DNA of 57,859 nt, filler included, from Jimgerdemannia flammicorona (Eukaryota), in NCBI GenBank assembly GCA_003990765.1. It is 3 parts of 3 records of this genome, joined end to end, with 100 filler letters (N's around TTAATTAATTAA, not from the genome) between each part and the next. Parts side by side here need not be neighbours in the genome. Positions count along the whole stretch, not along the records: positions 38,644 to 57,859 come from RBNJ01001998.1; 2 more parts are not named here. One strand, given 5' to 3'. The notes below the pieces were generated by a model. The model did not search any database. It saw nothing but the letters and a program-made list of their open reading frames with translations, and was not told the DNA's origin. Shown here in pieces: positions 38,644 to 57,859 of this stretch (position 1 is its first letter; each line of letters opens with the position of its first letter). The translations under genes were made by a program, and so were the position numbers.

Positions 38644-38733
38644 GCGCTAGGCTAACACAGCTTTGCTGTGTTCACCAAGCTGAGCTTTGAAAAAGCTCAG
38701 CTAGGCTAATTTATTAAAAATCCCCCGGGGGGA

Positions 38734-38757
38734 CCGGAGGGCGACCAAGTCCGCCGG
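38734..38757. repeat. Dispersed GC element CCGGAGGGCGACCAAGTCCGCCGG (first of 8 copies)
   Basis: Other copies, in either orientation, near 41701, 44924, 46383, 52130, 52721, 53672 and 54444. Confidence 0.9.
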
Positions 38758-39114
38758 TTAGCCCCCCCCCCTAAAGGGGGGGGGGCAACCAATTTGCCAA
38801 CCTGGTTTTTCTTTTAGAAAAACCAGCTAGGCTAGCCCGGCCGGGGCAAAGTATAAGATTGCCACGTTATAGTTACTGTGTTAATATATTATTATAAGTA
38901 GCCCAGGGTTCTCCTATGGTCCCAGGATTCTCCGAAGGTCCTTGGGTCGTTTGATTCCTCTTCCTTGGGAGGTAAGAATTTAACCTTAGTCGTAAATGTG
39001 TTAAATCTTTCTTTCAATGTAGGTTGTGTTATGCTTCTCATTCTACCAATTCCTATTTGGGGAATAGAGGGGAATCATTATAATTCTTTAACCTAGAAAT
39101 ATTCTTTGATTAAT

Positions 39115-39264
39115 ATGCCTCAATTAGTTCCTTTTTATTTCCTTAACCAGGTATCTTATGGATTCCTATTTCTATTTATTCTAATTTTTGTATTATCTAA
39201 ATATTTCTTACCACTATTTGTTCAACTACAATTTGCTCGGACTTTAATCTCTAAACTAGGGTAA
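39115..39264 (+). CDS. atp8: Mitochondrial ATP synthase subunit 8 (49 aa)
   Basis: [49 protein letters not shown]. Confidence 0.98.
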
Positions 39265-39493
39265 TTATAGTCTACCCTCCCCCCTCATTTTCAAACTGAT
39301 CCGCTTAAATATTCGATATATAAGTAAAGTGATGTGCTTTGTGGGTGTATAACTTAACCCCACCGGGCGGCCCCGCCCACGGCGCTAGACGCTTGCGGCG
39401 GGGACCGTAGGTAATAATTAAGTCAAATTAGGAATATCGATTCGAATTTGGTTATACCCGCTTATGAATAGAATTTAAGTAAAGTATAAGTAA

Positions 39494-39554
39494 GGACATG
39501 ATAATCTCGGTAGGTATGAAAATATCAGTGTGGTTCGATTCCATTCCATGTTCA
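39494..39554 (+). pseudogene. Truncated tRNA-like remnant
   Basis: Acceptor-like GGACATG/CATGTTC and T-arm GTGG-TTCGATT-CCAT; D and anticodon arms not recognisable. Confidence 0.4.
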
Positions 39555-39753
39555 ATCCAGCAACGATATGTAATCTTAAGGGATGTCGCAGTCAAACATC
39601 CCTGTTTGAGTAAATAGGTGAGTCTTTGACCATCACAATAGTAAACCGACGAAGCTGTCGTTTAACATCAGTGGAGTCAGCAGATATCTCAGCGTTAATG
39701 AGAGTCTCTGTGTAACACCTTTGATACTCTTCTCAACTAAGTTTGATCTAACT

Positions 39754-40084
39754 CCCGGGGGGCAAGCGTCTAGCCCCCGAGGGGCTTGTCCCGTCGGGGG
39801 TGAGTCCCCCTTGGGACTAGCGTCTTGTATTTATACAAGATGCTGAACGCAATTATTGCTTAAGCAATAAAAGCGTCTAGCCCCGCAGAGCGGCGCTCGT
39901 CCCTGAGACCCGGCTACGGGGAGGGGTGAGTCCCCTTGGGACTAGCGCTGTGGCGCTACGCCTCTGGCGCAGGGATACCAGCGCATAGGGTTGTTTGTTT
40001 GTTTAAACAAACAACCTAGCGCGGTTTCTAATTTTTTATTTATAAAAAATTGTAATAGCGCCGTCCCTCCCGGGAGGGCGTGGG
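39754..40084. repeat. GC hairpin host element carrying five TAG-delimited modules
   Basis: Junctions end at 39773, 39820, 39880, 39945, 40019 and 40058. A near-identical four-module copy lies at 52790-53046. Confidence 0.9.
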
Positions 40085-40893
40085 ATTAGAAAATTCTATT
40101 ATAATGGTTTATTTAGTCTAATTGAGTTATACAGATCTTATATTAACTATATTGAATTGTTGGAATAAAGTATAAAGTATAGATTAATGAGTGAAACTGT
40201 AATGGATTACTATCGTTGAGAATACATTATGACTAAATTAAACTGTAATTGAGTAGCGATTATGGAGTATTCCTATTTATTCTAACTACTCCAAGTAGTT
40301 CAACTTCAGAGTATATCGCTAAGAACACTGATTTTGATCACGATGTGGATTACAATGTAGATCACAATGTAGAGCACTTTGAGGGACTTAGTGATATTAT
40401 TGATATTTCTGGTTATTCTACTTCCACACCTATTTCAATGGCTAAACCTGCTGTTGGTACTTTAACTCCTGCGGGTGTGTCACTCGTTGGTACTTCAGAA
40501 AATCATTCTAGTGGGACTCCCGGAGCACCATCTAGTGGAACTCCCGGTGAATCGATTTTAGGGGACCGGCCCCGGCCACGGCGCTAGTCGCTGGCTTTTA
40601 CTAAAGCCAGCTACATGCGACCGTGTCGTTGGGCTAAAGCCCTACGCCACAGCGCTAGTCGCTGGCCCGGGGCCGCCCTAAACAAACTTGCTGAAATTCA
40701 AATGAAACAGACTGAAATTTTATCTGAAATTCGATCTGAAATTTCATAATTGAAAGGCAATGTATCCGCTTCCCATGTTGAAATTCGAAAAGTACTTGCT
40801 GTTGAAATCCAAAATGTACGAGCGGATGTCCAATCTGAACTTTCTTCAATTAGATCGGAAATGAGATCAGAAATTAAAGCGTCTTCTCAATCG

Positions 40894-41233
40894 AGGGGAC
40901 CGGCCCCGGCCACGGCGCTAGGAGTGAGCGGCCTGCCTTAAAGCAGGCCCCTCGCTCCATGCGACCGTGTCCCGGCTTTTGTTAAAGCCGGGCCACGGCG
41001 CTAGGAGTGAGACCCAGCGGGGCTCGCTCCATGCGACCGTGTTTTTTCTTTTAGAAAAACCACGGCGCTAGTCGCTGGCTTTTACTAAAGCCAGCTACAT
41101 GCGACCGTGTCCGGGCTTTTGTTAAAGCCCGGCCACGGCGCTAGTCGCTGGCTTTTACTAAAGCCAGCGGAATGCGACCGTGTCGTTGGGCTAAAGCCCT
41201 ACGCCACAGCGCTAGTCGCTGGCCCGGGGCCGC
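40894..41233. repeat. Tandem array of four double-hairpin modules in a host element
   Basis: Alternating constant linkers CCACGGCGCTAG and ATGCGACCGTGT with variable hairpins. A one-module version lies at 40561-40677. Confidence 0.92.
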
Positions 41234-41434
41234 AGTAAAGAAGTTGGGGATTTTAAGGCGGTTGTAGAAGCTTTTAGCACTATTATTTCACCCCTTCTTG
41301 GTGCCATTATGGATTCCAATAAATCTGTAGTCAGCGCTGTTGTTGAATCTAATAAAGAAACAGCTAGACTAGTTGGATCTGCTCTGGATTCTAATAAAGC
41401 ACTAGTTTCGGAATTAGCGACGATTGTTGCTTCT

Positions 41435-41665
41435 AAAGATGGTATTTTGACATTTCCTACAGGAACATTTAAAGGGTTATATTATTCTGAAGAGTAACGA
41501 GTACTAACTTCACTTGGTTATTCGGTTGAATGTGAAAAGGGATATCTATTTGCTAGTTCTGATTTATTCACTGAGTATGTAGAACATTTCTATAAACTAA
41601 AATCTGAAGCTGCTGGTGGAGAAAGATATATTGTTAAACTGCTACTTAACGGACTATATGGCTTC
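41435..41665 (+). pseudogene. dpo: Plasmid-type family B DNA polymerase fragment
   Basis: FPTGTFKGLYYSEE*..LGY..GYLF..LFTEYVEHFYKLK..RYIVKLLLNGLYGF. Confidence 0.9.
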
Positions 41666-42269
41666 TGTTGCTCCCCCCCTTCTTTGAAGGGGGGGAGCTA
41701 CCGGAGGGCGACCAAGTCCGCCGGCCCCCCTGGGGGAGTCGATCTCAATATTATAACCAATCCTTAATTATCGATCAAAATGAGATTGTGGATCAATTTT
41801 TTTTTGCTGGAGGCAAACTACGTCTGCCAGCAAAAAAAAACCGCAGTGATCATCCGCCAGGAGGTCCTCTACTACCCCCATGTAATACTCCATCAATAAA
41901 CTCTCAATGTCCTAATGAAGAAGTGTAATAACCCACTTCACCAACATTTCTGCGTACGCCGGTGGGGGTCGGCCCATCGGCCCACCCTCCCCGAATGGGG
42001 GGGGGGAGCCGATTTATATATATTTATATATAAAATTCACAACTATATTATATTATAATATGGTAGTCGATGCTAGTCCCGAGGGGACTCACCCCTCCCC
42101 GTAGGGGGAAGCGACAACACTCTCCCCTCCCCGTAAGGTCTCAGGGGGGGGCTAGAAGAAATCTATTAAAATCAACAGTAAAGATTTACGACACCACAAG
42201 TGTGCTTTTGAGCATAGTAAGAGAAAATTCTCTTCATTATAGATTAAATCAACAATATTATAATTATAT

Positions 42270-42360
42270 TAGAGATTATAGGATTCGAACCTAGATAATG
42301 ATTACCATTAATGATCAGGCTTGATTGACGGTCCACGCTTAACCATTAAGCTAAATCTCT
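42270..42360 (-). ncRNA. tRNA-like RNA with enlarged anticodon arm (91 nt)
   Basis: Acceptor AGAGATT/AATCTCT, D-arm GCTT/AAGC, T-arm TAGG-TTCGAAT-CCTA; no canonical 7-nt anticodon loop. Confidence 0.6.
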
Positions 42361-42427
42361 ATAAATCATAGGATTTCTCTTAAGGCTAATGCAATACCTA
42401 TATCGATAGTTACCACGCTTCATAAAT

Positions 42428-42556
42428 TGAAGACCCAAGGATTCGAACCCTGATCTATCGATATACCACTGCATATAAGATTGGGCTTTTAGACCCAAAT
42501 ATTTATACACAGTGTGTCACAGTCTATCAATCGCTTTACCCTTTAGCTAAAGCTTC
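42428..42556 (-). ncRNA. tRNA-like RNA with a long hairpin in place of the anticodon loop (129 nt)
   Basis: Acceptor GAAG../..CTTC, T-arm CAGGG-TTCGAAT-CCTTG. Stem ATTGATA/TATCGAT encloses CACTGTGTATAA...TTATATGCAGTG. Confidence 0.6.
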
Positions 42557-43125
42557 TGAGCTGTATGATAGGTTATATGTGGGGGGGGTAACCCCATATG
42601 AAGAAGCCTTTCATCAATGTTATATTTGTTGGGTGTGTTCCAGTAACCCTCAGGTTACAGGAACACATATTCAAATTAAATCAATTCAAGTTAGTTAAAA
42701 AATCGTAATTCGTATTTCTAGGGTAGCTCCCCGCCCCGTCTTCTTTATAAGAAGACGGGGCCGGGAGCAAGTCGGCGTAGCCGAGGGTCCGGAGGAGGTG
42801 GCGGGAGCCACCCGGCACTACCCCCCTAGCATCTGTTGGTTGCACTGGTATGAAAAACCATACTACTAACCCGTTATACTGACATGCGTGTACAGTCGAT
42901 TACAGCTTGACATATTACCTATATCAAATAATCTATTTTGAATATCTAAACATCTTATGCTGGATGAGTGCCCACCCAGTTCGCTAATCTATAAAGTATA
43001 GCTGTCTAATTTGTTTAATTCATATTATAGGCAATGTGAATCCTATACTTATATTATGATAATAATTAATATTTCAACTTAAATACTAATAGGAGAAGTT
43101 TGGACCATTTAGAGTTGCAATCCAA

Positions 43126-43278
43126 CTACTTTTTTACTAACCCCAAGCATAAAACCGACGAATCCAAAGGAATGGATGGTAAGGGGCAATTTCTAACAGA
43201 AATGGTTAAAGAGGCAGAGTCACCGCCCCACCAATAAACAGTGATAAACAAGAAAAGTCATACAACATCAACGAAATG
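43126..43278 (-). pseudogene. cox3: cox3 C-terminal tail, copy 4, with read-through extension
   Basis: HFVDVVW(TGA)LFLFITVYWWGGDSASL...SVLCLGLVKK*. Confidence 0.85.
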
Positions 43279-43279
43279 G

Positions 43280-43659
43280 GGGGGAGGGGTGAACCCCATA
43301 AATAGACAGTGATAAATAAAAAAAGCCAAACAACATCGACAAAATCATATTACTCCTCTATTTTCATAGTGGTAAGGACTATATCTTAACTCAATGTTGA
43401 TAAAGAGCTTACTACACGTAGTCTCTGGGGTAAATTCCTGCTGATTGCCCAATCTCAACCGTTATTATCATTAAGATAGATAGAGTTTAAGGGTGTTTTA
43501 GCATTTGGTAGTATTCAAAATATTGATTATAATATTAAGGGTATTTTCATGCCAATACAGAATTGCTGCTTCAAACCCAGTATGATGAGAATCGGTGAAA
43601 TGGTAAGCAACCATTCTATACAAACAAACAGTTAAAAAAATAGTACCGATTAAGACATC
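43280..43659 (-). pseudogene. cox3: cox3 3' fragment, copy 3, split by a group I intron
   Basis: [36 protein letters not shown] / [19 protein letters not shown]. Confidence 0.9.
43346..43550 (-). ncRNA. Minimal ORF-less group I intron
   Basis: Core elements AAATGCT, AATCAGCAGG, CAGAGACTAC and AAGATATAGTCC in order, with terminal G at 43346. Removal restores W-H-F-V-D; boundaries are ambiguous by 2 nt. Confidence 0.85.
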
Positions 43660-43725
43660 TAGAGACCTAACTTATATAGCATACTTGGATGCATATATGG
43701 CCCAACTAACTTTTCGAAAATCTTC
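43659..43725 (-). pseudogene. C-terminal remnant of a LAGLIDADG endonuclease
   Basis: [17 protein letters not shown], abutting cox3 copy 3. Confidence 0.7.
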
Positions 43726-43816
43726 CATAGATTGAGCTCTAATAAAAATTCTCTTGGCTTGATTATAACCCCGAACAGTACAGTGCCAACCATATCGTAT
43801 AGCCATGGCTCCACTG

Positions 43817-43850
43817 TAACCGTATGTGCAACTTTCATCGCATACGGCTC
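43817..43850 (-). ncRNA. Group II intron domain V
   Basis: GAGCCGTATGCGATGAAAGTTGCACATACGGTTA: AGC triad, GAAA loop, AC bulge, 34 nt. Confidence 0.85.
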
Positions 43851-44001
43851 AAGCACTAAACTTACGAGTTATTACAATATACTAAATATACAAACAATCT
43901 ATGGCTGTAAAGATGGAGTTAAAATTATCCTTTAAGAACCTCGAATAAAGATAATACTCGAAGATTAAAAGGTAATATAAACAATTACAAAACGGATACA
44001 A

Positions 44002-44897
44002 TTAACCTTTTTTAAAAACATAAAGGCCTTTATAGACCTCCCCAGATCGAACCGCTTTAGAAATAGCACAATGGTTAATATTTAAGTATCTGGCTGCTTC
44101 TCTATACGATGGGAATGTAAATAATAATGAATTATCTGTGGCAGAGTATACCGAAACGCCTTGAGCTCTAGAGGTCAGAACGCCATACATTGGGTTATTT
44201 TCACCCGCCTTTGCTGCACTCATTGCCGCGACAGTCGAGTCCGAATGTCTTTTACCTCAATTTGGATTGTTTTCACCTTGATTTGCTGCACTGATTGCTG
44301 CTTTAGCTTCTGGCGTGTGCTGATAACCTCATCCTGAACCGGCTTTTTTGTAGTTTTTTATAGCGGGCACATGTCCGCCCTTGAAAAAACAAAAAAAACC
44401 GGTAAAAAGTTGAATCGACAGCTGGCCGGTAAAGAAAATAGCCAGTTCAAGTACAATTGCTCTCTTGAGAGTAGAAGGGCTTTAATCTCAGAAGGAGAAG
44501 TACCGGCAATAATTTCTACAAATTCTACGACGATAAATACAAAAGCGCCAATTCCGTACTTAGCGATAGCATTTCGTAGGTGAATGTTAGAAGAATGAAA
44601 AAAATGCTCATTCATTCTCTTGGAAAGATCGATAGTTGAACCAATGTAGATCGCGCCCGTAATTACACATCTAATAGCGTAAATGCCTGCTAATCCTTTA
44701 AGAGATTTAATGGCAGAGGCAAAATTATCAGTAATATTCAGATTCTCGAATTGCATTACACTAGGTAATGCTGCTGTGGGAAAAGATTCACCTTCACATA
44801 AGATAACGCTGTTTGAGCCTACAAGAATAATAATCCAAGCAATAAATAAAGTCATTGTAAAGAAACTAAAATTATGTGTAAATGAGTAGTTTTTCAT
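44002..44897 (-). pseudogene. Free-standing GIY-YIG homing endonuclease, frameshifted by a hairpin insertion (~44345-44400)
   Basis: AGIYAI..IYIGST..KRMNEH..REQ..FNFLP, then NUMOD3 repeats (GENNPMYG) and a C-terminal SYREAARYL helix-turn-helix. Confidence 0.93.
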
Positions 44898-45719
44898 GAT
44901 GGTGTTGTAGGCCCCCGGGGGGACCGGCGGACTTGGTCGCCCTCCGGTCCCCCCGGGGGATTAAATAAAATAAAATCAAATAAATAGGGGGGGTCAATGA
45001 TAAATATAACTAGTTCCTAATTAGTTATAGCGGGGACAAAGCCCCCGACTTTCTCACACCATTAAGAAGGTGACTGCCGTCCAAGCCTTTTCCTCTTGAA
45101 AACCGTTTTATCTTGATCACCTTAGTCACTTAATGTGTGTCATCGACCGGCTATACATGGATTAATTTACTATTATATTACCGAAATGGAGTTACCTCCT
45201 AGACGACTCATGGAGTCCTCTCCTAGAGACTGTATCTATAAGCCATAGATTTCGTTGATATCTCTTTAAATATCTCTATCTATATAGCTCAGGGATGTCG
45301 TGGATCCTCTTTGATCCGGAGAGTACCTTTCCTGGGTATAGCTCCTTCAGTTTATTGTGGTTTTAATTCAATATTCACAATTTCTTAGACATCCCCATAT
45401 GACTTTTTAAACGTAACAGCAAACTGAAATAAGTATATACAGAATTCAGTAAATAAAGCTGAAACCGGTAAATAAATAACAATTAATATACTATAGCCAA
45501 AAGAGATTCTGGTCTGATTAATACCACGATTAGCCCCTCCCTTTAGGAGGGGCCAGCGACGAGCGCCGTGGCCCGGGGGGGGCTACCAGTGGTAAAATCT
45601 TTATCCTTTTTGTTAATGTCCTTTACTTATAAAGAAGATGAAAAACTTAAAATATAACGCAAGGGGACTGCCATCCATCCTTCGCATTAGTAGAGAACAG
45701 CCATCTAACCATAAGAAGT

Positions 45720-46700
45720 TAAATATTTATCCTTTTTGTTAATTGCCTATACCTATATTGAAAAATTGGGTGCGGCCCCGGGGGGACAAGGGGCGGGTAT
45801 ACGACCCTTCCCGCCTCGTTAGCACCCGCCCACATCTCCTGGGTAAGCTTACCCAGGAGCCGAGGGGGGGAGCAACCCCCGGGTAAGTGTAATCTGTATG
45901 GAGGGGGTGAAGGCCGGTAGCAACGATTTAGCAACTCAACCCGATCTAGAGACGCCGCGGGGACCCCTTTACAAGTCGGCAACAATCCGCAAGAGAAAAA
46001 CTATCGGTACAAAACAATAGCCCAGTACTCGCCCACGTCCCATCTCCCATCACCCAGTGCGCAATACCTTCAGCATTAAGATATGTAAATAAATGAATAT
46101 CCGCAGGAACGACTTTCTTCCCTAGAACATAAAACATATTATAGAACACCGTTAGACACAAGAGGGCGCGAGTATAGAACGCTACTGTTTTAATTACTCC
46201 ATCAACAATCTTACTTGCGTCAGGGAGAGAATTACAAAAAGGGCTAAAAATGAAAAACACAAACCAGAAATATGGGGCATGCTCTGGAATAGATTGTACA
46301 AAGGTGAATCTCACTAAATTGGTTCCCTTTTGTAGATACCCGTCAGACAGCATAATTCCAAAAAGGATGCACGCCTCCCGGGCCGGCGGACTTGGTCGCC
46401 CCCGGCCCGGGAGGACCATATTAAATGGTAGTTGAAACATATGTGCTAGGTATTTAGGCATTTGATTAGCGAATAGCCCAATAGAAGTGCGATCCCATGG
46501 TTAAAGAACCCCAAACAACTAATGCTGTACATGTTGTTGGAGGAAATAATAGAGCCACTTTTTTCATAATTCTCTTTGTATCTTTATGGGTATAACTTAC
46601 CGGTAGTAAGGTTGCCCAGCATAAAAAGGGGTCGTCTAAAAAAATGAGTGAAGATGAGAAAAATATTACAGGTCAATAATGCCACACAATAACGTTAGAA
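45720..46700 (-). pseudogene. Double-motif LAGLIDADG endonuclease interrupted by GC elements
   Basis: CTALVVWG, LFGIMLSDG, IAHWVMGDG and LCTDSFS-like motifs. Confidence 0.9.
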
Positions 46701-46711
46701 AGAATGAAATT

Positions 46712-47099
46712 AAAAACATACATAGCAAAAGCCTGTACTTCGTTGAAAATACTACCCGTGGGGCCCACGGGTGGGACGGCGCTAGACGCTTGCCCCCCGT
46801 GGGTTTGTACAAAATTGTAATTCGTTGAAGATACTACTTAATACTAGCTGTCCTTTACCAGTCACTAAATGATCAACTCATTGCGGAAGAAAACTCTCCC
46901 ATAGATCGTGAAAGGCAGTTACTGGGAATAAACCGACAGCACCCCCTACACCCGAACCTACTAATAAGACTAAAATCCTTACTAGTACCCCAGTGTAGAG
47001 TAAGTTACGATCGGCAATCCACTTAAAATAAATAGCGGTAATCCGAAGGGATGGTAAGGTGATCACTAAAATCATAATTCAAATTAAAATTCAAACCAT
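46712..47099 (-). pseudogene. nad2: nad2 5' fragment (degenerate)
   Basis: ILVITLPSLRITAIYFK...VGSGVG..GLFPVT and EVQAFAMYV. Homologous, with its upstream flank, to 56611-56970. Confidence 0.7.
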
Positions 47100-47255
47100 T
47101 ACAACTTAACAACAATAACAAGAAAATCTAAAATCCTGTTTCTTATATGTTCTGCCAGATTCTAAAGTTAGCCAGACCTAACCGTAAGGGTGTGATTAGC
47201 CCCCGCCCTATACTAGAGAAGATCGATATCTAAATAATGGGGGGGGGGGGGGGGG

Positions 47256-47927
47256 CTAAGAGCCCCATAAATAAATAGAAACGTATAAAAATAGCCAGAC
47301 AACATCTACAAAATGTCAGTAAAGAATCGCCGTTTCAAAGCCAACTGGATGATGATTTGTTAAATGATATGATAAAAGTCTGAAAAGGCATACAATTAAG
47401 AATGCCGAACCAATAATAACGTGTAGTCCGTGGAAACCTGTTGACATATAAAAAGTACAACCGTAAACTCCATCTGCCAATAGTTAATGGAGCATTGTAA
47501 TACTCGAAAACTTGTAAACCAGTAAAAATGGCAGCTGCGCCCGCGGGGCGCTGCAGTAAAACTATGTTTAACAGCTAAGATAATAGTAAATAGTAAACCA
47601 TAAAAAGAACCATTTCTAGAGCCAGCGATCAAGCTGTGGTGAGAGTATGTTAAAGTCGCTTTTTTTGGTTTTTGCTGGAGGCAAACTACGTCTGCCAGCA
47701 AAAACCAAAAAAACGGAGCTCAATAAAATAACTGTGTTCAATAAAGGGATCTCAAAAGGATTCATAGTCTCAATACCTGCTGGAGGCCAAATAGAACCTA
47801 ATTCAACTGTAGGAGCTAACGCGGAATGGAAAAATGCCCAAAAAATACTAAGGAAAAAGAAAACTTCCGAGATAACGAATAAAATAAACCCTAAAGTTAA
47901 GCCAGACCTAACCGCAAGGGTGTGGTG
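47256..47927 (-). pseudogene. cox3: Displaced cox3 3' two-thirds, copy 2
   Basis: [17 protein letters not shown]...[19 protein letters not shown], broken by palindromic insertions (~47662-47712, ~47531-47554) and a frameshift. Confidence 0.93.
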
Positions 47928-47937
47928 ACGACCCGCC

Positions 47938-49395
47938 TTACACTAGAGAAGATCGAAAGATCCATAAAGATTTACTAACCTTCCCCGTATCGATCATACG
48001 GTAAACAGACGTTGCAGAGATATTACAGAATTTTGCAGCGGCTGTGATTGTAGGAAAAGTACCAACATATTCATTGTTGTGCGTATACACATAGACTGCT
48101 TTACTTAGATGATGATAACTCCCTGACATTTTTGCTAGCGTCTCTGGGGAATGTTTGAACCCTAAGCTCGATTCTGCCATAGAAAGAATGTTATAATAAG
48201 GGTGGAAAGTATCTAACGCTAGTTGTTCAAGAGTTAATAGTTGTTCCCGAGAACAAAAGCAAAGAATTGAGAACGTAAAAGCGGATAGCGAATACTTCAA
48301 GAGAGCGTTCTGTAAAAGAATATTCGAACTACCACCGTACAAATGTTGATGCAATCTTCTCGCCAAATCAACAGAGCTACCAATATACTGGTGCTCATTC
48401 AGCTGATTAGTAAAAGCGTAGATCCCTGTTTGGCCTCTCAGCTCCGCCTTAATAGCCGAATAGTTTTCGAGAATATCCGAATATACAGTAGGGTTTGAAA
48501 AAGGATCATTAAGAGGGGTTCCTTCACACATTACATTATTAAAGAAAAAATCCATGATTGTTTGAACATCGATATCCAAAAATAATGAGGGGGAGGCGGG
48601 AGAACCCCACCAATAAATAGTAATGAATAAAAATAGCCAGACAACATCTACAAAATGTCAGTAAAGAATCGCCATTTCAAACCCTTCATGATGATGGTTT
48701 GTTAAATGATATGATAAAATTCTGAAAAGGCATACAATTAAGAATGCCGTACCAATAATGACGTGAATTCCATGAAGCCCGGTTGTCATATAAAAAGTAG
48801 AGCCATATACTCCATCTGAAATAGTAAATGATGCATTATAGTACTCATAGGCTTGTAGAGCTGTAAAAATCGCAGCCAAGAAAATAGTAATAAATAAACC
48901 AAAAATAGTACCTTTTCTAGTCCCAGCGATCAGACAATGATGTGAATAAGTTAAGGTGGCTCCTGAGCTTAATAATAATACGGTGTTTAATAAAGGGACT
49001 TCAAATGGATTTAACGATTCGATACCTGCGGGTGGTCACATGCACCCTAACTCTACAGTTGGGGCTAAAGATGAATGGAAGAAAGCCCAAAAAAAACTAA
49101 TGAAAAAGAATACCTCTGATACAATGAAAAGTAAAAAGCCTAATTGTAGACCACGTCTAACCTGCAGTGTATGGTGCCCTTGGAAAGTTCCTTCTCTACT
49201 AACGTCCTTTAGCCACAAAGCCATTGAACTAACTGTAGCAATAATCCCTAAAGCCAATAACAAAGGCCCGTTAGAGTAACCATGAAAACACATAACTCCA
49301 GATAAAGTAGTAGTTAATAAAGCGAACGCAACCGATAAAGGCCATGGAGATGGCTCAACTAAATGATACGGATGAGCTTGAATTGATCTAAGCAT
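47938..49395 (-). CDS. cox3: Cytochrome c oxidase subunit 3 fused in frame to a GIY-YIG endonuclease (code 4; alternative ATG at 49419)
   Basis: [12 protein letters not shown]...[19 protein letters not shown], with TGA=Trp at 49036 and 48658. No stop follows; the frame continues [12 protein letters not shown]...GIYAFTN..YIGSS to TAA at 47938. Confidence 0.95.
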
Positions 49396-50364
49396 AATAT
49401 AAACTATATAACCCATCATTTACCCAGCTGCCCCAAGAGTCTTAATAAACCCTTACCCAATCCCATATACTTGATATTAGGAGGCAGTAAGATACTACTA
49501 ATTATGGGGGATCAGTAGAATGGTGATGTATCTCTTCTTAATACCCTCCGATCAACCGAAGGTTGATGGGGGAGAGGAACTAGAATTAAAGGAATCTTAA
49601 GATAAACTATAAGAATCGCTTACTCACTTGAGGAGTGTTCTAGTACTTCCTTTTATTAATTTACAAGAATCGGTAATGCTGGCCAGCCTAGGGAAATGAA
49701 GTACTAGCTCCTCGTAAGAGGGGCGTTGGGGTTCTTTTCTTGGTCAACTTTAATAATGGAGGGTTCCTACGGACTAAAGGAAGAAAGGAGAACCACGTTC
49801 TCGCTTCGCCCCTGGAATCAGGGACAAGTGCCGATTCAGCGTGTCCAATCGGAATAGAGCTACCCTCACACAATCTAAGGTTCATGGAACTCAAGAGAAT
49901 GGGAGGGTATGGAGAGTTGGGTTGTCCTTCTGTCTTTGTGTATGTGTGTTGTATGTGTGTTTAGATTTGGTTATTATTGTATATTCTGTGAGGTATCAGT
50001 CCCCCATATTAACGGCCGGCCGGCCGGCCGGTTGATCATTCGATCTACCTTAACGATGGGAGGGTTAGTGGAGTAGGGTATGCTTCAGAGGGAGTCGTCG
50101 TTTGCTCCATTTCTGGGGCTCGTCGTGCCGCGTGATCGATCATGTTGACCATGGAAGCCTCCTCAATGAGAAAACAGGTCGTGTGAACATCGAACGAACT
50201 GGGGAAGCGAGCAATAGGAGGATATACATAGGGGTACGACGTGGTCGAGCTTTATTCTGTGAATGCTCCGGATGACATGGGAGTCTGTTGTCCCGTTGGG
50301 GTTGGTTGGTAGGATGGGGAGAGGTTTGTTAGTTGTGAATGAAAGAAAAGGGATTTTGTGTATA

Positions 50365-50436
50365 GGTGAGGTAAGGAGTCGAACCTTAATAATCAGATTA
50401 TAACAATCGGATGCTTTGCCTGTTAAGCTACCCACC
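50365..50436 (-). pseudogene. Degenerate tRNA, probably Asn(GTT)
   Basis: D and T arms intact. The anticodon loop is 9 nt (TTGTTATAA), the stem has a mismatch, and the acceptor lacks one base. Confidence 0.55.
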
Positions 50437-51324
50437 TAGAGGGTAACCCCCTTACCCTCGACCACAATGTCCTTATTTTTGCCTATTTTCTTACCCAAAG
50501 TAGGCCGGCCCGGGGGTGAGTGGGGTGAAACCCTACTACTTTTAAGCACCTTCGCCAAAACGGCTTCAGTTTCTCGTGTATAATCCTTGTGTTTAAGGTT
50601 TTGCCTACAGCGCTTTGGTATAGCCATACCCTACAGCACAAATACGACCTTCCTTACAACACCTTATTACTCCTCAAAGGCCTTAATAATACGGTTTCAT
50701 TAAACTCAGGGTTATGAAAGGTGCTGTTACCATGCCCCTGGGTTTATCGTCTTATTTTAGTAAGAACGGGTCGACTTCTCAAGAAGGGGTCAAAGTCTCA
50801 CTTTGAAGCCGGTTTCGGAGAGGGAGATTGAGCCCCCAGATAGGGCTCAACTCGCCCGGGAGTGGAGCGACCTCCCACAAGCCTCAGCTTACTACAATCG
50901 GATAGAGCTTCGGGAGTTCTGCGACCACAATGTTCTGTCCTGTCTACTTTGTAGACGCAGAGGGGTCTGGGGATTCTTCCCCAGGTCCTTTGGGTATCAC
51001 CCGGTTTAAGACCCTAAGATTAAAGATGGCTGGGCCTAAGCCCGATTAACGGTCTTGGAGCGAACCAGGCGTTGTGGGGTATACAGAGGCGGCCATTTTG
51101 CTTGATTGTTAGTACATTTGAGATACAGTCTGATTTAAGCCACGTTTTAAGTGCTATATACATAGGTCACATTCGTCCATCACCTCAAGGTTACGGGACA
51201 TTTTCTTACGTAAGCAAAACACTATCGGGACTTTATCGAGTTCGAAAAATATATATTTATATATATTTTTTAATTTTTATATTATATATAAAAATCGATT
51301 TCAACCCCCCCCCCGTAGGGGGGC

Positions 51325-51622
51325 GGGCCAGCCGTGGCGCCTCTAACCAGGGTACAACAATCTTTGTGAACCAGATTCGGCACGGTCGCATGGTTGGTTT
51401 GTGGCCCCCGGAGGACTCCCCTCGGAGTGTTCCGAGGGGGCCCCCCTGGGGTTTAAAACAAACCAGCCTAGCGCCGTGTCTGCCTATAAATATGCTGCAC
51501 GGTCGCATGGTTGGTTTGTGGCCCCCGGGAGGACTCCCCTCGGAGTGTTCCGAGGGGGTTGCCCCCCCCCTAAAGGGGGGGGGCTAGTTAAACAAACCAG
51601 CCTAGCGCCTTCCGCCGGGGCC
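51325..51622. repeat. Two large TAG-delimited double-hairpin modules
   Basis: CACGGTCGCAT-GGTTGGTTTG...AAACAAACCAGC-CTAG occurs twice. Confidence 0.85.
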
Positions 51623-52004
51623 AGTAATTAAATTAACCAAAGTTGCCTCTGCCTGAGTACTTTCAACACCCCATTACTCAGTTTAACGTAATTCTCGCAC
51701 GCTTGATCATTGTCTGCTTGTTGAGAATTTTCCTTTACTTATATATCTTATCTCTTATACATATATTACACACATTTACTTATATCTTATCTCTTACACA
51801 TTATATTATAATGTCTTACTTCAACCTAGCTCTACCTTCGAGTCCCACGCTTCGAACCATGTCTGCTTGTGGATTCGATTCCTTCTCTTCTATGTTTTTA
51901 TATGGCCGGAGTCATTGTTACCGGAGCTTAGAATATAGAGACCTTCAAAGGGCTAGAAGCCACGAGCTGAGGGCCGGGCCTAGAAAAAAAACTAGTTAAT
52001 CTAA

Positions 52005-52053
52005 CCCACGGGGGGCAAGCGTCTAGCGCCGTCCCTCCCGTGGGCCCCGCGGG
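52005..52053. repeat. Empty host hairpin element (no modules)
   Basis: GGGGGCAAGCGT-CTAG-CGCCGTCCCTCCC. An inverted empty copy lies at 46755-46803. Confidence 0.9.
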
Positions 52054-52789
52054 AATATATATTTTATATATTTTCGATAGATATTATATATAATATCTAT
52101 AGACGACCCCCTCCCCGTAGGGGGGGGGACCGGCGGACTTGGTCGCCCTCCGGTCCCCCCGGGGGGTAATCTGAATAATTAATTAGACTGTATATCTATA
52201 TCTTAAGTCCTGTTGGCTTAAATTACAATATACTTAGAAATTGTATTCATCCAGCAATTGAAATTGTTTTATATGTACTATGTTTATGCGAATATTTACA
52301 GTATAAACAGATTTAATGAGTCGTTAGAAGCGTTTCTCTCCTTATTCGCCCTAGGCCCCCAAGGGGCCTCGCCCCGTAGGGCCAAGCCCGACAGGGCTAG
52401 AAGGGATATAATTTAACACCATGCAAAACCATTACTCACAAACTCTTGCTACATTCACTCAATACGTGCTACCTAGATTATCTGGTGCATTGAGTAGGCA
52501 GCTACAGCTTTTATTGAAGCTGCTAATACCACTGTACTAACAATCTATCTTATAATCAGTATGCTAAGTTAACTGGTTATATTAATTCTTCCAATATTCA
52601 TGCTGCGTATAGAGCAGCATTACTTGAATTATTATCGTTTGGTCTAAATCAAGTCTAATTATGCCAATGCAACTGAACGAACATCTACTTCTGGAGGTAT
52701 TGTTTCCGGCCCCGGGGTGGCCGGCGGACTTGGTCGCCCTCCGGCCACCCCGGGGCTCTTTTATCAGGTTTAACCACAATTGTATCAAC

Positions 52790-53046
52790 CCCCTGGGGGC
52801 AAGCGTCTAGCCCCCGAGGGGCTTGTCCCGTCGGGGGTGAGTCCCCCTTGGGACTAGCGTCTTGTATTTATACAAGATGCTGAACGCAATTATTGCTTAA
52901 GCAATAAAAGCGTCTAGCCCCGCAGAGCGGCGCTCGTCCCTGAGACCCGGCTACGGGGAGGGGTGAGTCCCCTTGGGACTAGCGCCTTGGTTTTCTAATT
53001 TTTTATTTATAAAAAATTGTAATAGCGCCGTCCCTCCAGGGGGGCG
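52790..53046. repeat. Host element with four modules
   Basis: Junctions end at 52810, 52857, 52917, 52982 and 53025. Confidence 0.9.
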
Positions 53047-54796
53047 TATTTTACCTATTGCCCATGCTATTATTGAATCTAATTATGCTTTAGCTGAGTC
53101 TAATCTTGCTTTAGCTTCAGCTATTAATCTTAGAACTCAACTTGATTTGATGAATCTAACTGCACAGCCTGTAAAAACGGTTGTCGATAATTCATTAATT
53201 ATTGAAAATAATGGAACCCATGACCCTTTCATTGAAGTATCACTGGATACGAATAACCCGTTTTCTAAGGATCTAGCTAATACAGATCCATTTAATTCTC
53301 CCTCTCCATTTTGGGTTACCCCCCTAGGTAGTAACCTGCCGGGTCTAGTTCTCCGGCAGCCCCTGAGGGTTGGAGCCCTCCTGATGACGGAATTTCTCTA
53401 CTTTCACCAAACTTTTGGGATGACGGTTATTTTTGGGAATGGGATGAAGATGAAGGTGAACAATATTTTGATAGAGAAATGCCAATTCCATATGAAGGTG
53501 TTGAGTTACCAACTTTTAAGGTATTGTAATTAAAGAATCAATTCATACTAATGAATATATGTCTACGATAAAATAATATATATATTATTTTATTGAATGC
53601 CCCCCGGGAGACAAGGGGACAACGGTCCCGCCTCCCGGGGTTATTAAAATAAAATTAGATTTCCCGGGGTGGCCGGAGGGCGACCAAGTCCGCCGGCCAC
53701 CCCGGGACCGAAACCACAGTATCGGTCGCTCCGATAAATATTATATAATAATATTTATTAAAAATATATAAAGATATTTTAGATGGGAGCTCTGGTTCTC
53801 TTGCAGAGCGGGAGTTAAGTGTTACTTTAGCTGAAACTATGAAAAACCCGGATGGGACAAATACATATCCAGTACCTCCGATGATACCGAGCGAACTGTA
53901 GAAATTACGCCAGATGAAGCAGGTTTTAATTCTAAGTTATGAGCAGATATTGATTCTAGACTCTGAATCCATGAACCAGCTACAGAAGGGTTTATTTTCC
54001 CATCATGGGATCCTGTGTCTGTTTCAACAATGCCAATCCCATATGATGGTGTTGAGTTCCCGCTACAAGGTTCTGCACATTTAAACCCTATTATGGTTTT
54101 AGATTCTCCATCATCTATGGATTATGATTTCCATGAAGAGTCACTTGATTCTGCACCTTTAAAACTTACTATGAATTTACAATCTCCCCCAGATGTGGAT
54201 TATAGAGTTACTGAGGAACCACTTCTAGATCTTGATGTTCATGATGAGCTATATTTAGATCAACTGCTGCTTGCTCGGGATCCAGCTCTATGTGAACCTA
54301 ATTATGATGCTCCAATTGGGAGTTCCCCCCTCGCAACGCGAGTAGTACCTGTAGAGCCTTTAATTGAGCCGTCCCGGAATATTCTGAGTTTTTAGATTTA
54401 CCAGTCAATACACCTTCTTCGAGTGTACCGATCCCCGGGGGGACCGGCGGACTTGGTCGCCCTCCGGTCCCCCCCGGGGACTTGATACAACTTCACCATT
54501 AGATCAAGTCAATACTGAACCCCACGCCCCCCGGGAGACAAGGGGACAACGGTCCCGCCTCCCGGGGTTTATAAACAAGTTTATGACCGTCTCTATACCT
54601 AAATATAGATGCTTTAATTACGCATAAAGATTTTCAGGCCCCGGGCGCCACGGCGCTTAGTCGCTGGCCGCCCGGGTCGTATGCAAATAAAAACATACTA
54701 TTAACCCATTATACTGACATGCGTGTACAGTCGATTACAGCTTGATTCGGGGGTGCACGGGGACCCCCCGGCCATAGGTCACGGGGGGTCCCCAAC

Positions 54797-55072
54797 ATTT
54801 TTTGCGGCAAGCGACTAGCCCCCGAGGGGCTTGTCCCGTCGGGGGTGAGTCCCCCCTTGGGACTAGCGCTGTGGCGTAGGGCTTTAGCCCTAGGATACCA
54901 GCGCATGGGTCGTGTGCTATGGCACACGACTAGCGCTGTGGCGCTACGCCTCTGGCGCTGGGATACCAGCGCATGGGGTTGTTTGTTTGTTTAAACAAAC
55001 AACCTAGCCCCCGAGGGGCTTGTCCCGTCGGGGGTGAGTCCCCCTTGGGACTAGCGCCTATTGCAAAAAAAA
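54797..55072. repeat. Module array (four modules)
   Basis: CTAG junctions at ~54815, 54864, 54930, 55004 and 55051. Confidence 0.88.
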
Positions 55073-55885
55073 AGCAAGTAGTAACCATTCTTCCTAGCCT
55101 AGTTGTGGAATAACAATTGCCGCCGCCGCCGCCGCAACTATTACGGCCTTTCAGAGAGACATAGCTTAAATGGAGAACTGACTTTTTTTTTTTTTGTTTT
55201 TGTTTTTAATCAGGCGACCCCCGGGCCACGGCGCTAGTCGCTGGCCCCGGGGGTGATTATCACAAATGGAAATATTGTATACAATAACCTGATTCGATTC
55301 CAGTGAGTCTATAATATAAGTAAAGGAAGGCATGGGTAGGTATACCATGCTCCGCGCCCCTCCATTATTCGGGTTAAAAGGTTTGTTCCCAAATATACCT
55401 AAATAGCACACTATGCCCTATTCAATAACCCTATAGCTATATATTTAATCATGAATATTCATATGAGTCGCCATAACTCACTCAATCTACAATTTTTATT
55501 CTATAATTTTTTTGATTTTCATTCTATAGGTGGGTAGGTCCAAAACACACACATGTGTGTGTTTTTGATTTTTATATAAATATAAAAATAGATTCCCCTC
55601 TTAGCCGCAGATTTCCAGCCATTTTACCCGGCCGCACAAATCAAGGGGATGTTTGTGACCTCTCTAAGCCGCATATTTTAACCCATTTTCCCCACTAGTC
55701 AAAATCAAGCCATTTTTGTTTGCTGAAGGTTTTTTAACGGGGGCACCTTCTCGGGCAGCACCCTTATTCGGTTAGTGCTCACTTAACCCGGGCTTTGATG
55801 GCAGATTCCTCACTATCTCGAATTTGGCCTATAGAACCCGTGAATCCAACAAAGCCAGGATTTACGATATTCTACCCCCGGGGCT

Positions 55886-56066
55886 CCCGGCCGGAAGGCG
55901 CTAGGCTTGTTTGTTAAAACAAACGAACCCCATGCGCTGGTACCCTTGGGCTAAAGCCCTACGTCACAGCGCTAGGCTTGTTTGTTAAAAACAAACCAAC
56001 CCCATGCGCTGGTACCCTTGTTAGTTTAAACTAACAACGTCACAGCGCTAGGCTTGCCCGGCCGGA
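55886..56066. repeat. Module array (two modules)
   Basis: CTAG-GCTTGTTTG...ATGCGCTGGTACC...CACAGCG-CTAG occurs twice. Confidence 0.88.
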
Positions 56067-56644
56067 AGTTGGCCTAAATATTCGTATTTTAAATAACCAC
56101 CCTTTTAACCAATAGGGCCCCCCCCAAAAGTGTAAATGAGATAGGATATTTTACACAAGGCGTTTGAGCGGGGAAGTGCCGGCTCCAACATTACCGGAGA
56201 TTCGTGTCTATGCCGTTAAAAAGCGTTCTGGACTACCCGACTAAAGAGTATTCTAGCGAGGTAAAACTCTAAAAACAACGAGCTTTGAGACTTACACAAC
56301 GCTAGCCCTGTCGGGCTTGGCCCTACCCCTTGGGGGCCTAGAAGAAACTTGCCCCCAAGCCAATTACCTATAAATAACGGGAAAAGTGGTCTCCTTACCA
56401 TTTTAGATGGGTGGCTCCCGCCAACCTCCTCCGGAGGCCACAGAGTGTATTACAATGGTGTGGAGATTAACACTAACCATAAAATAAGTAAAAGTTTAAA
56501 TGGTTCAATATAAGAGGAGAACTATCAGGATTTATTATGTAAGAGACGGGTTGAATTTAATAAAAGAAACAATAATCTTAGATTCTCTTGTTAATAAAAG
56601 TAATAAGAATTTAAGATTCTCTTGTTAATGGTTGTTAAGTAGTA

Positions 56645-56970
56645 ATGGTTTTATTTTCTATTTTAATCCTGATTTTAGTGATCACCTTATCTTCCCTTCG
56701 GATTAACGCTATTTATTTAAAGCGGCTCTTTATACGTTACTCATTGCTGGGGTGTTAACAGGACTATTGTTAGCAGGTCCGGGCAATGGGCTATAGAGGG
56801 TTTATTCCCAGGAACCAACAATGAAATTGATGAAGGACTGCCAGTATTAACCAAATACCTCCATACAGTATTATTTACTGTATCTGGTACGAGTTGTTTA
56901 ATTTCAAGTTGGGATCTAGTTTCTATGTTCTCATCAATTGAACTTCAGAGTTTTGCTGCGTATGTTTATA
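56645..56970 (+). pseudogene. nad2: nad2 5' fragment (degenerate)
   Basis: MVLFSILILILVITLSSLRINAIY... and LISSWDLVSMFSSIELQSFAAYV. Confidence 0.8.
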
Positions 56971-57430
56971 GTTCTGTAATTTCTAAATTCACAGTACTCT
57001 GCGAAGGCACTTCAGACGAACCTAGTGTAGCTCAATTTTCTAATCTCCATTTAACTGACCAGCTAGTATCTGCGTATCAACAATTAAAGGGCCTAGCTGG
57101 TATTTATTGTTTTAAAAAATTACTGGGGCTATGTACATCGCCCCCGGCGGGCCAGCCTAGCTGAGCTTTTTCAAAGCTCAGCTTGGTGAACACAGCAAAG
57201 CTGTGTTAGCCTAGCGCCTTCCGCCGGGGGAGGATCATCTATTAATTTAGCGGTTAGAATGAGAGATCCCATCACACATACGTGTGATTGCCATCTTAAA
57301 AACGCTTTCTTAAAATATGGTTTAGCCTCGCACCGGGGTGCGCAGCCACCTCGGTGCGAGGTAACTCTCCCCTCCCCGCAAGGTCTCGAGTGGCCTCTTT
57401 TCTTTTTATTATCATTGAATATGTAGCAAA
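56971..57430 (+). pseudogene. GIY-YIG endonuclease remnant in frame with the nad2 fragment, broken by hairpin elements
   Basis: VLCEG..LKGLAGIYCF / GSSINLAVRM / LKNAFLKYGL / FLFIIIEY. Confidence 0.85.
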
Positions 57431-57480
57431 TTAATCCAGAGAGCTACCCTGGGGCAATTAGTGCTTTATTATTACTTCGT

Positions 57481-57786
57481 TTTTTTTTTGCAAGACGGCG
57501 CTAGGTTGTTTGTTTAAACAAACAAACAACCCCATGCGCTGGTATCCCAGCGCCAGAGGCGTAGCGCCACAGCGCTAGTCGTGTGCCATGGCACACGACA
57601 TGCGCCCTGCCTCCATCAGGGTATACCCATATTGCGCACAGCGCTAGTCGTGTGCCATAGCACACGACCCATGCGCTGGTATCCTTGGGCTAAAGCCCTA
57701 CGCCACAGCGCTAGTCCCAAGGGGGGGACTCACCCCCGACGGGACAAGCCCCTCGGGGGCTAGTCGCTTGCCGCAAAAAAAAAAAT
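57481..57786. repeat. Module array, inverted relative of 54797-55072
   Basis: CTAG junctions at 57501, 57575, ~57644, 57711 and 57760. Confidence 0.88.
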
Positions 57787-57859
57787 CCCGGGGCCAGCGA
57801 CGAGCGCCGTGGCCCGGGGGAGTGAGCAAATTTATTTGAATTGGCTCTTTTCACTACCT

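What the first reader, a model, noticed from the sequence alone, without database searches (positions are those of the whole stretch)
43126..49395. Stack of four different cox3 3' ends: serial invasion by endonucleases carrying replacement gene ends
Seen: after full cox3 plus GIY-YIG come a divergent copy restarting at HHT (47927), another starting at (H)VLIG directly after a LAGLIDADG stop (43659), and another restarting at HFVDV (43278). All differ in synonymous and amino-acid positions. Established: intron-less homing elements that import a foreign 3' gene half are described for Allomyces atp6 and in Glomus mtDNA. Inference: at least three target sites and two nuclease families used this strategy on one gene, so the expressed cox3 is a mosaic.
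Basis: partly seen in the sequence, partly recalled or inferred. Interest (0 to 1): 0.75.

Follow-up and report, generated by a model that had tools for sequence, protein, structure and literature searches.

The report
Stacked swapped-in ends of mitochondrial cox3
In a soil fungus, selfish DNA-cutting genes have repeatedly replaced the back part of an essential mitochondrial respiration gene with foreign versions and left the original stranded in pieces downstream, a known trick seen here nested several times in one gene, with the untouched original gene still found in other samples.

Summary
The stack is real. This fungal (Endogonales-type) mitochondrial cox3 keeps 73 native codons, then carries a foreign 192-codon tail (A) fused in frame to an intact GIY-YIG.

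An independent protein, P0146, is that empty allele: 72/73 identical to the 5' part, 131/133 to B1 and 54/54 to C, but only 105/135 and 40/54 to A. Its H-V joint appears in 3 of 4 runs laid. Trees of the 5' and middle segments conflict.

The GIY-YIG/HHT invasion is well supported. A second event at H|V is likely: one LAGLIDADG, split by a 2.1-kb insert, ends exactly at C, and a relative is fused to cox3 in another lineage. The third site (HFVDV) has no nuclease left and stays uncertain. There is also a fifth stub.

The mechanism is the Allomyces/Glomus gene-hybrid type; this genome's atp6 and atp9 show it too. Two earlier scan notes report cox3 tail swaps in other fungi. No cleavage was tested.

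The parts
49177..49395 (-). Native 5' part of cox3 (73 codons, M...EGTFQG); an upstream in-frame ATG exists at 49419
   Evidence: 72/73 identical to P0146 and 71/73 to P0034; coordinates
48601..49176 (-). Tail A: replacement 192 codons of cox3 (HHTLQV...WWGS), no stop codon; itself mosaic (middle is 'A-type', last 55 codons are close to B2)
   Evidence: 105/135 and 40/54 to the empty allele P0146; A-type clade 99/93 and 99/99 across two 5' lineages; present without differences in contigs of all 4 runs
47938..48600 (-). C-rich tract, linker and intact GIY-YIG + NUMOD1 ORF (GIY#1), in frame with tail A
   Evidence: Pfam; same fusion with the same WWGSPASP linker in P0002/P0147/P0148, 56% identical in this part
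47429..47927 (-). B1: displaced native cox3 middle (HHTLAV...STGFH), broken by two palindromic inserts (about 47660-47713 and 47532-47571) and a one-base frameshift near 47477
   Evidence: 131/133 to P0146 and P0034; run X2 shows the same sequence without the three lesions; run X1 shows 47333-47688 as in the window, 1 difference
47256..47428 (-). B2: a second foreign tail (GLHVIIG...LWGS stop), sister of the last 55 codons of A
   Evidence: 90% nt to A, 62% to C1; groups with A at 93/82, not starred
47160..47255 (-). Collapsed second GIY#1-type unit: poly-C and leader joined through TCGAT microhomology to the last codons of the GIY ORF, followed by a 37-nt HHT stub (fifth cox3 piece)
   Evidence: 78% to 48564-48642 and 86% to 47891-47956; only these matches in the genome search
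46640..47147 (-). Decayed copy of the nad2 5' end, fused ahead of the LAGLIDADG
   Evidence: 85-94% nt to several other nad2-start copies in the genome; NuoN match for two of those copies
45970..46640 (-). N-terminal two-thirds of a LAGLIDADG_2 gene (frameshift and GC insert), including a linker homologous to the cox3-LAGLIDADG fusion P0046
   Evidence: Pfam E 2e-28; 57% identity to the P0046 tail, E 2e-24, and the only hit for that tail among the own-genome contigs fetched
43818..45954 (-). 2.1-kb insert that splits the LAGLIDADG: truncated group II intron copy (domain V at 43850-43818, no domain VI) holding a frameshifted GIY-YIG/NUMOD3 ORF (44900-44002)
   Evidence: Rfam domain V E 4e-4; 92-98% to contigs C7466 and C8588; Pfam. 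Assigning the upstream part to domains I-III rests on recalled motifs
43659..43817 (-). C-terminal third of the same LAGLIDADG_2 (GAMAIRYGWHCT...MLYKLGL stop); the TAG abuts copy C
   Evidence: continuous alignment with an intact paralogue, L071; junctions spanned by contigs of X2, X3 and X4
43551..43658 (-). C1: displaced native cox3 from the second base of the H-V histidine codon to YW-C
   Evidence: C1+C2 54/54 identical to P0146; joined directly to B1 in X1, X2 and X3
43346..43550 (-). ORF-less group I intron splitting the YW C|AT codon (5' exon ends in C, intron ends in G)
   Evidence: Rfam E 4e-9; 205 nt skipped in X2 and X4, not in X1 or X3; same position and borders in L005 and L046
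43279..43345 (-). C2: last exon (FVDV...YLWGS) plus C-rich tract, no stop
   Evidence: identical to P0146 through WGSPLPP
43126..43278 (-). D: a further cox3 end from HFVDV (WWGGD plus a 30-codon extension), probably the oldest displaced end
   Evidence: 77% nt to C2 and to A; 89% aa to P0027 over 19 residues; C2-D junction in an X2 contig with 0 differences

Best explanation
This is a nested record of intron-less homing into one gene. The element is a cassette made of a cox3 tail and an endonuclease ORF. Its nuclease cuts an empty allele; repair from the donor places the donor's tail in frame, so respiration is kept, and the old tail is pushed behind the endonuclease stop, where it decays. 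Inferred order: (1) oldest and least sure, intron + C2 + a since-deleted ORF entered at YW|H and displaced D. (2) The LAGLIDADG cut at GFH-A-I-H|V in the allele 5'-B1-C; repair used the donor's first cox3 copy on the left and C on the right, so it copied everything between (B2, a GIY unit, an HHT stub, the LAGLIDADG) and displaced C. (3) The GIY-YIG cassette entered at QG|HHT with tail A and displaced B1. Afterwards B1, the LAGLIDADG and the second GIY unit decayed through palindrome inserts, a group II-derived insert and a microhomology deletion. Shown: anatomy, identity of B1+C with an intact allele, segment-tree conflict, the same cox3-GIY fusion in another lineage. Inferred: cleavage, target sites, order of events, donors.
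For: P0146 is an intact 5'+B1+C gene (72/73, 131/133, 54/54), and P0034 shares 5'+B1 (71/73, 131/133). Run X2 shows joints 49178>47928 and 47429>43658 (reading FQGHHTLAV and GFHAIHVLIG) and lacks B1's three lesions; X1 and X3 show the second joint. Segment trees: the 5' part splits two lineages, each 100/98, while the middle puts A with 3 members of its own lineage and 4 of the other (99/93; 99/99 under the mixture model). AU tests reject A+B1+P0146+P0034 as a clade in the middle (p 0.0002) and the A-type set as a clade in the 5' part (p 0.00015). The same cox3-GIY fusion occurs in P0002/P0147/P0148, whose 5' part is only 52/73 identical. The B1-to-B2 switch lies 6-7 nt upstream of the codon position where C starts. 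The LAGLIDADG's close relative P0046 is fused in frame to cox3. In this genome atp9 has a displaced end directly after a GIY stop, and atp6 has a displaced end 73% identical. No intron core was found between tail A and B1.
Against: No cleavage data. The AU groups were named after seeing the trees, and the test that the whole 5' lineage is one clade in the middle segment was not rejected (p 0.069). The tail tree has 54 columns and is mostly unresolved. The stretch between B2 and C is a patchwork of copies from other mitochondrial loci, not a clean cassette. No endonuclease lies between C2 and D. A GIY 61% identical to GIY#1 (P0001) has a short nad2-like start rather than cox3, so the family is not confined to cox3. 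A search for longer proteins with the LAGLIDADG found none (0 of 207 candidates). 0 of 45 metagenome loci showed a GIY hit beside cox3, but none was a close relative (best segment 73% identical). The GIY#1/B1 junction was not among the bridging contig pieces displayed (482 pieces not shown).
Confidence: 0.7

Rival explanations
1. Only one site and one family home here (GIY-YIG at HHT). B2 + collapsed GIY + stub is a second copy of that unit made by unequal crossover. C is simply the exon after a dead LAGLIDADG-carrying group I intron. D's start is a deletion end point at CATT.
For: B2, the collapsed GIY and the stub are all 78-90% like the A-GIY-B1 unit. The TAG's G could be a terminal intron G, and the real intron in C also splits a C|AT codon. 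Group I introns with LAGLIDADG ORFs are known near this part of cox3 (cox3-640, PMC7902536 passages; I did not map that position onto this gene). CATT is shared by the C-rich leader and D's start.
Against: No group I core between 47150 and 43660. The empty allele has no intron at H|V in DNA run X1. A random crossover would not be expected to fall 6-7 nt from C's start in about 410 nt of B1, although that stretch is conserved. The stub differs from B1 at 3 bases plus 1 gap in 37 nt, more than B1 has decayed. The LAGLIDADG's relative is a stop-less cox3 fusion (P0046), not an intron ORF. Intron + inserted end + ORF + native end is the published Glomus cox2 layout (PMC3630166 Table 2).
Confidence: 0.22
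2. The copies are ordinary intragenomic duplicates that diverged by decay, with no foreign donor.
For: A and B2 are 90% identical with a 50-nt identical tract; the genome is rich in repeats.
Against: The dead copies (B1, C) match living alleles almost exactly, while the in-frame copy is the divergent one. A/B1 differences are mostly synonymous. The AU test rejects joining A with B1.
Confidence: 0.03
3. Assembly chimera: two co-occurring mitochondrial haplotypes (A-GIY and B1-C) were concatenated.
For: Both forms occur together in 3 of 4 runs; the assembly is fragmented (35,354 contigs); no listed piece spans the whole stretch.
Against: Window B1 carries lesions that the free allele lacks, and independent DNA run X1 holds the lesioned B1-B2 junction and depth in all 30 bins. 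The domain V-LAGLIDADG-C and C2-D junctions are bridged in other runs. The collapsed unit repeats the GIY-end/HHT junction independently.
Confidence: 0.03
4. The inserts are introns with an internal gene duplication that are spliced out (one Tremella case), so B1+C is the mature mRNA of this allele.
For: An RNA-like run (X2) has a path that skips A-GIY and B2-LAGLIDADG. PMC7315562 reports one such predicted intron as real.
Against: That path also lacks both palindromic inserts and the frameshift and has several base differences, so it needs a different DNA template. The H-V joint is in DNA run X1 too. No intron core was found.
Confidence: 0.02

Closest known systems
Mobile-ORF gene hybrids of fungal mitochondria: Allomyces macrogynus atp6; Glomus sp. 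DAOM-229456 atp6, atp9, cox2, nad3; Rhizopus atp9, Mortierella cox2 (as described in PMC3630166, passages read; the Allomyces and zygomycete papers were not read)
   Same: Foreign 3' end in frame, endonuclease ORF behind it (sometimes fused, without a stop), displaced native end downstream that matches empty-allele relatives. Glomus cox2 also has an intron ahead of the inserted end.
   Different: The target is cox3, which is not among the genes listed there. The swap covers 192 of 265 codons. Five cox3 pieces are nested in one locus, with both nuclease families. Empty and invaded alleles occur in the same samples.
Tremella fuciformis 'introns with N-terminal duplication' (PMC7315562, passages)
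   Same: Host-gene fragments exchanged through mobile endonuclease elements; intraspecific alleles with and without the insert.
   Different: Reported for cox1, nad3, nad4, nad5 and cob as single inserts; here nested, and not spliced out.
C-terminal duplications of cob and atp6 flanked by degenerate endonuclease ORFs in Endoconidiophora resinifera (PMC6279837); truncated atp6/atp9 copies in Sclerotinia (PMC4162613); free endonucleases beside duplicated atp6, cox1 and atp9 (PMC7487136)
   Same: Gene, several endonuclease remnants, then a 3' copy.
   Different: In the passages read these are treated as duplications with one extra copy, without an empty allele or segment trees.

Membership tests
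Mobile-ORF gene hybrid (Allomyces/Glomus type) | Core gene's 3' end present twice: in frame upstream, truncated downstream | tested here: met
Mobile-ORF gene hybrid (Allomyces/Glomus type) | Homing-endonuclease ORF between the copies, no intron core: HHT site | tested here: met
   intact GIY-YIG; no Rfam intron hit at 48600-47928
Mobile-ORF gene hybrid (Allomyces/Glomus type) | Homing-endonuclease ORF between the copies: H|V site | tested here: inconclusive
   broken LAGLIDADG_2 ends at C, but the interval is a patchwork and an intron origin is not excluded
Mobile-ORF gene hybrid (Allomyces/Glomus type) | Homing-endonuclease ORF between the copies: YW|H site | tested here: not met
   only a C-rich tract separates C2 and D
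Mobile-ORF gene hybrid (Allomyces/Glomus type) | Downstream copy, not the in-frame copy, matches element-free relatives | tested here: met
   P0146: B1 131/133, C 54/54; A 105/135 and 40/54
Mobile-ORF gene hybrid (Allomyces/Glomus type) | Empty allele exists | tested here: met
   P0146; HHT joint in 1 of 4 runs, H-V joint in 3 of 4 runs
Mobile-ORF gene hybrid (Allomyces/Glomus type) | Inserted end is transcribed with the 5' part | tested here: inconclusive
   5'-A contigs without differences in X4 (RNA on record) and X2/X3 (RNA guessed); assembled contigs cannot prove transcription
Mobile-ORF gene hybrid (Allomyces/Glomus type) | Inserted end comes from another lineage | tested here: inconclusive
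   segment trees conflict, but one AU test is p 0.069 and donor and direction are not identified
Mobile-ORF gene hybrid (Allomyces/Glomus type) | Endonuclease cuts the empty allele and spares the filled one | not testable with these tools
   needs a cleavage assay
Group I intron (43550-43346) | Conserved core and terminal G; removed from RNA | tested here: met
   Rfam E 4e-9 though under the gathering score; skipped in 2 of 4 runs (an intron-less DNA variant is not excluded); terminal G as in L005 and L046
Group I intron (43550-43346) | 5' exon ends in U (recalled rule) | tested here: not met
   exon ends in C here and in L005 and L046 when the terminal G is kept
Spliced intron with host-gene duplication (Tremella nad4-i2 type) | Insert is removed by splicing from this allele's RNA | tested here: not met
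   the skipping path has a different sequence, and its H-V joint occurs in DNA

The most novel reading that the evidence does not exclude
In Endogonales-type fungi cox3 is a modular gene whose last three-quarters travel between distant lineages as endonuclease cargo, and the invasion is still running, since empty and invaded alleles share samples. Later nucleases move whole stacks, including another family's dead cassette, as one growing super-element. The invading tail has no stop before the C-rich 3' signal, so the working subunit is made either from a non-stop mRNA or as a processed cox3-endonuclease fusion.
Probability: 0.3. Interest if true: 0.72.

Novelty: new variant of a known kind. 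Interest (0 to 1): 0.5.

Why it matters
It turns a mechanism known from single events into a readable series in one gene. The pre-invasion allele is in hand, so target sites and homing can be tested directly. It shows that 72% of a core respiratory subunit can be exchanged between lineages whose 5' parts are only 71% identical, which bears on mito-nuclear compatibility. It also means cox3, and here atp6 and atp9, are unsafe as single-history markers, and that such loci are easily mis-annotated: public gene models P0003 and P0051 splice the pieces into one false protein. The mechanism itself would not surprise a specialist.

Tried and rejected
Metagenome locus scan with the fused protein: 45 loci, none close. 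The overlapping cox3 hits in L044-L049 were checked in L046 only and are alignment overrun across introns.

Search for longer LAGLIDADG fusions: nothing. Search of 50%-identity representatives with GIY#1: among 176 proteins, only P0002 and the gene model P0003 carry cox3 sequence.

Readings dropped: a hairpin after domain V as domain VI (it is LAGLIDADG coding sequence, and the paralogue in C8588 has a normal domain VI); two separate LAGLIDADG genes (they are two halves of one); a novel membrane leader at 47147-46640 (it is a nad2 start).

GIY#1 and B2 have little or no contig cover in X2-X4, and the A contigs stop at 48637, 48621 and 48607, just before the C-rich tract. This is only a weak hint of 3' processing there. 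Co-occurrence of both alleles is partly a selection effect, because the 4 runs laid were the best word-holders of 20 listed. An MFE fold of the intron was uninformative. One Pfam scan did not run and was not needed.
Full report
Setting. The window joins three contigs. Bases 38644-57859 are a mitochondrial contig (G000:C1998) read with NCBI table 4, and it holds the only cox3 matches found in the assembly (4 matches among 7 candidates). The records closest to the window's own protein, P0003 and P0051, are labelled Jimgerdemannia flammicorona by their source, an Endogonales fungus. The assembly holds at least 49 GIY-YIG and 39 LAGLIDADG_2 matches.

Observation. On the minus strand the order is:
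- 5' cox3 (73 codons), then tail A (192 codons, no stop), in frame with an intact GIY-YIG/NUMOD1 ORF.
- B from HHT, with two palindromic inserts and a frameshift.
- A collapsed second GIY unit, in which the leader is joined to the last codons of the ORF through TCGAT, followed by a 37-nt HHT stub.
- A decayed nad2 start.
- A LAGLIDADG_2 gene split by a 2.1-kb group II-derived insert that carries another GIY ORF; its TAG abuts C.
- C, holding a 205-nt group I intron, then a C-rich tract and D.
B changes character at H-V: 74% nt to A before it and 90% after.

The empty allele. Among cox3 relatives, P0146 is an unbroken gene equal to 5' + B1 + C. It is identical at 72/73, 131/133 and 54/54 residues, against 105/135 and 40/54 for tail A; P0034 shares 5' + B1. 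I laid 4 of 20 listed runs. X2 has a path joining 49178 to 47928 and 47429 to 43658, without B1's lesions. X1 (DNA guessed) and X3 show the second joint. All four runs also hold tail A without differences, and X1 holds the lesioned B1-B2 junction. So the dead downstream pieces are the original gene and the in-frame tail is the newcomer. The skipping path is a different template, not a splice product. The intron in C is skipped in X2 and X4. No listed contig spans the whole stack, and the GIY#1/B1 junction was not among the pieces displayed.

Trees. I picked 35 relatives by hand from the 120 listed, P0002 and the 10 cluster members. The 5' segment separates two lineages (each 100/98). In the middle segment A groups with three members of its own lineage and four of the other (99/93; 99/99 with the mixture model), apart from B1/P0146/P0034. 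AU tests reject A+B1+P0146+P0034 in the middle (p 0.0002) and the A-type set in the 5' part (p 0.00015). They do not reject the whole 5' lineage in the middle (p 0.069), and the groups were named after seeing the trees. The tail tree is poorly resolved; A and B2 pair at 93/82. P0002, P0147 and P0148, from the other lineage, carry the same cox3-GIY fusion with the same linker. P0046 carries a cox3 tail fused to the start of a LAGLIDADG 57% identical to the window's. In all, 8 of 130 proteins examined have a tail of more than 3 residues beyond the terminal WG motif.

How it most likely works. Each cassette is a cox3 tail plus an endonuclease. Cutting an empty allele and repairing from the donor swaps the tail and strands the old one behind the nuclease stop; this follows the mechanism described for Allomyces and Glomus.
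- HHT/GIY-YIG (about 0.9): supported by the intact ORF, the empty allele and the fusion in a second lineage.
- H|V/LAGLIDADG (about 0.65): supported by the stop abutting C, the B switch 6-7 nt upstream of C's start position, and P0046. It requires the donor block to have included a GIY unit and an HHT stub, which is what repair between the donor's first cox3 copy and C would copy.
- YW|H (about 0.5): the layout resembles Glomus cox2, but no nuclease remains, and CATT microhomology offers another cause.
These odds and the order of events are inference. The main rival keeps only the HHT site and explains the rest by unequal crossover, a dead intron and a deletion.

Context. The same genome has displaced 3' copies of atp6 (73% aa) and atp9 (directly after a GIY stop). 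C-rich tracts follow nad1, atp6 and atp9 as well (3 of the 5 gene ends examined; not nad6 or cob in the 90 nt shown). They are therefore probably a general 3' signal; a C-rich 3' processing signal is described for S. pombe (PMC4618339, passage). Tails A and C2 have no stop before that tract.

Literature. I read passages only (keyword finds) of PMC3630166, PMC7315562, PMC4162613, PMC6506933, PMC3787672, PMC6279837, PMC4618339, PMC8393795, PMC7487136 and PMC7902536. No supplements were opened, and their annotation tables could list cox3 cases. The Allomyces and zygomycete originals were not read. Nine searches showed no report of nested cox3 tail replacement, but the library lacks most subscription papers. 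Two earlier unchecked scan notes describe cox3 tail replacement in other fungi, one with three copies and one with an intron.

Verdict. Real, and a new variant of a known kind: nested and unusually large, with the pre-invasion allele available. Interest 0.5.

Noticed in passing
window 47147-46640 and 56606-57200; L108 1276-2454; L102 6193-7173; L104 1780-1115; L100 5132-4778; L059; L099; L069: At least eight copies of the nad2 5' end, several fused in frame to different GIY-YIG ORFs right after ELQSFA. This may be a mirror-image element that replaces the 5' end.
   Followed up: partly
L104 4574-1976 (atp6); L098 5786-7403 (atp9): Displaced 3' copies of atp6 (from GHVLL, 73% aa) and atp9 (last 20 codons, right after a GIY stop): the classic gene-hybrid layout.
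   Followed up: partly
window 45954-43818; L100 9292-7435; L102 2400-3150: Group II intron family with a GIY-YIG ORF ahead of domain V. In C8588 domains V-VI end at an rnl-like exon (label recalled). GIY-YIG in group II introns is mentioned as rare in PMC8393795.
   Followed up: partly
window 43550-43346; L005 4503-4752; L046 3097-3311: Group I introns at cox3 YW C|AT have C, not U, as the last 5' exon base in three lineages.
   Followed up: partly
window 48600-48586 and 43288-43279: Tails A and C2 have no stop codon before the C-rich tract; RNA-like contigs end just before it.
   Followed up: no
window 42556-42428, 42360-42270, 50436-50364: Three tRNA-like genes with odd anticodon arms: inserts of about 60 and 20 nt in two, and a TTA anticodon call with two extra bases in the third.
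   Followed up: no
P0034, P0030, P0046, P0057: Other cox3 proteins of this clade also switch type at HHT or at GFH-x-x-HV, suggesting recurrent exchange points.
   Followed up: partly
window 1-38543: Two nuclear contigs with decayed LTR (gag, dUTPase-like, RT, integrase) and LINE-like remnants (labels by eye from ORFs).
   Followed up: no
P0003, P0051: Public gene models splice cox3, GIY and copy B into one artificial protein.
   Followed up: yes
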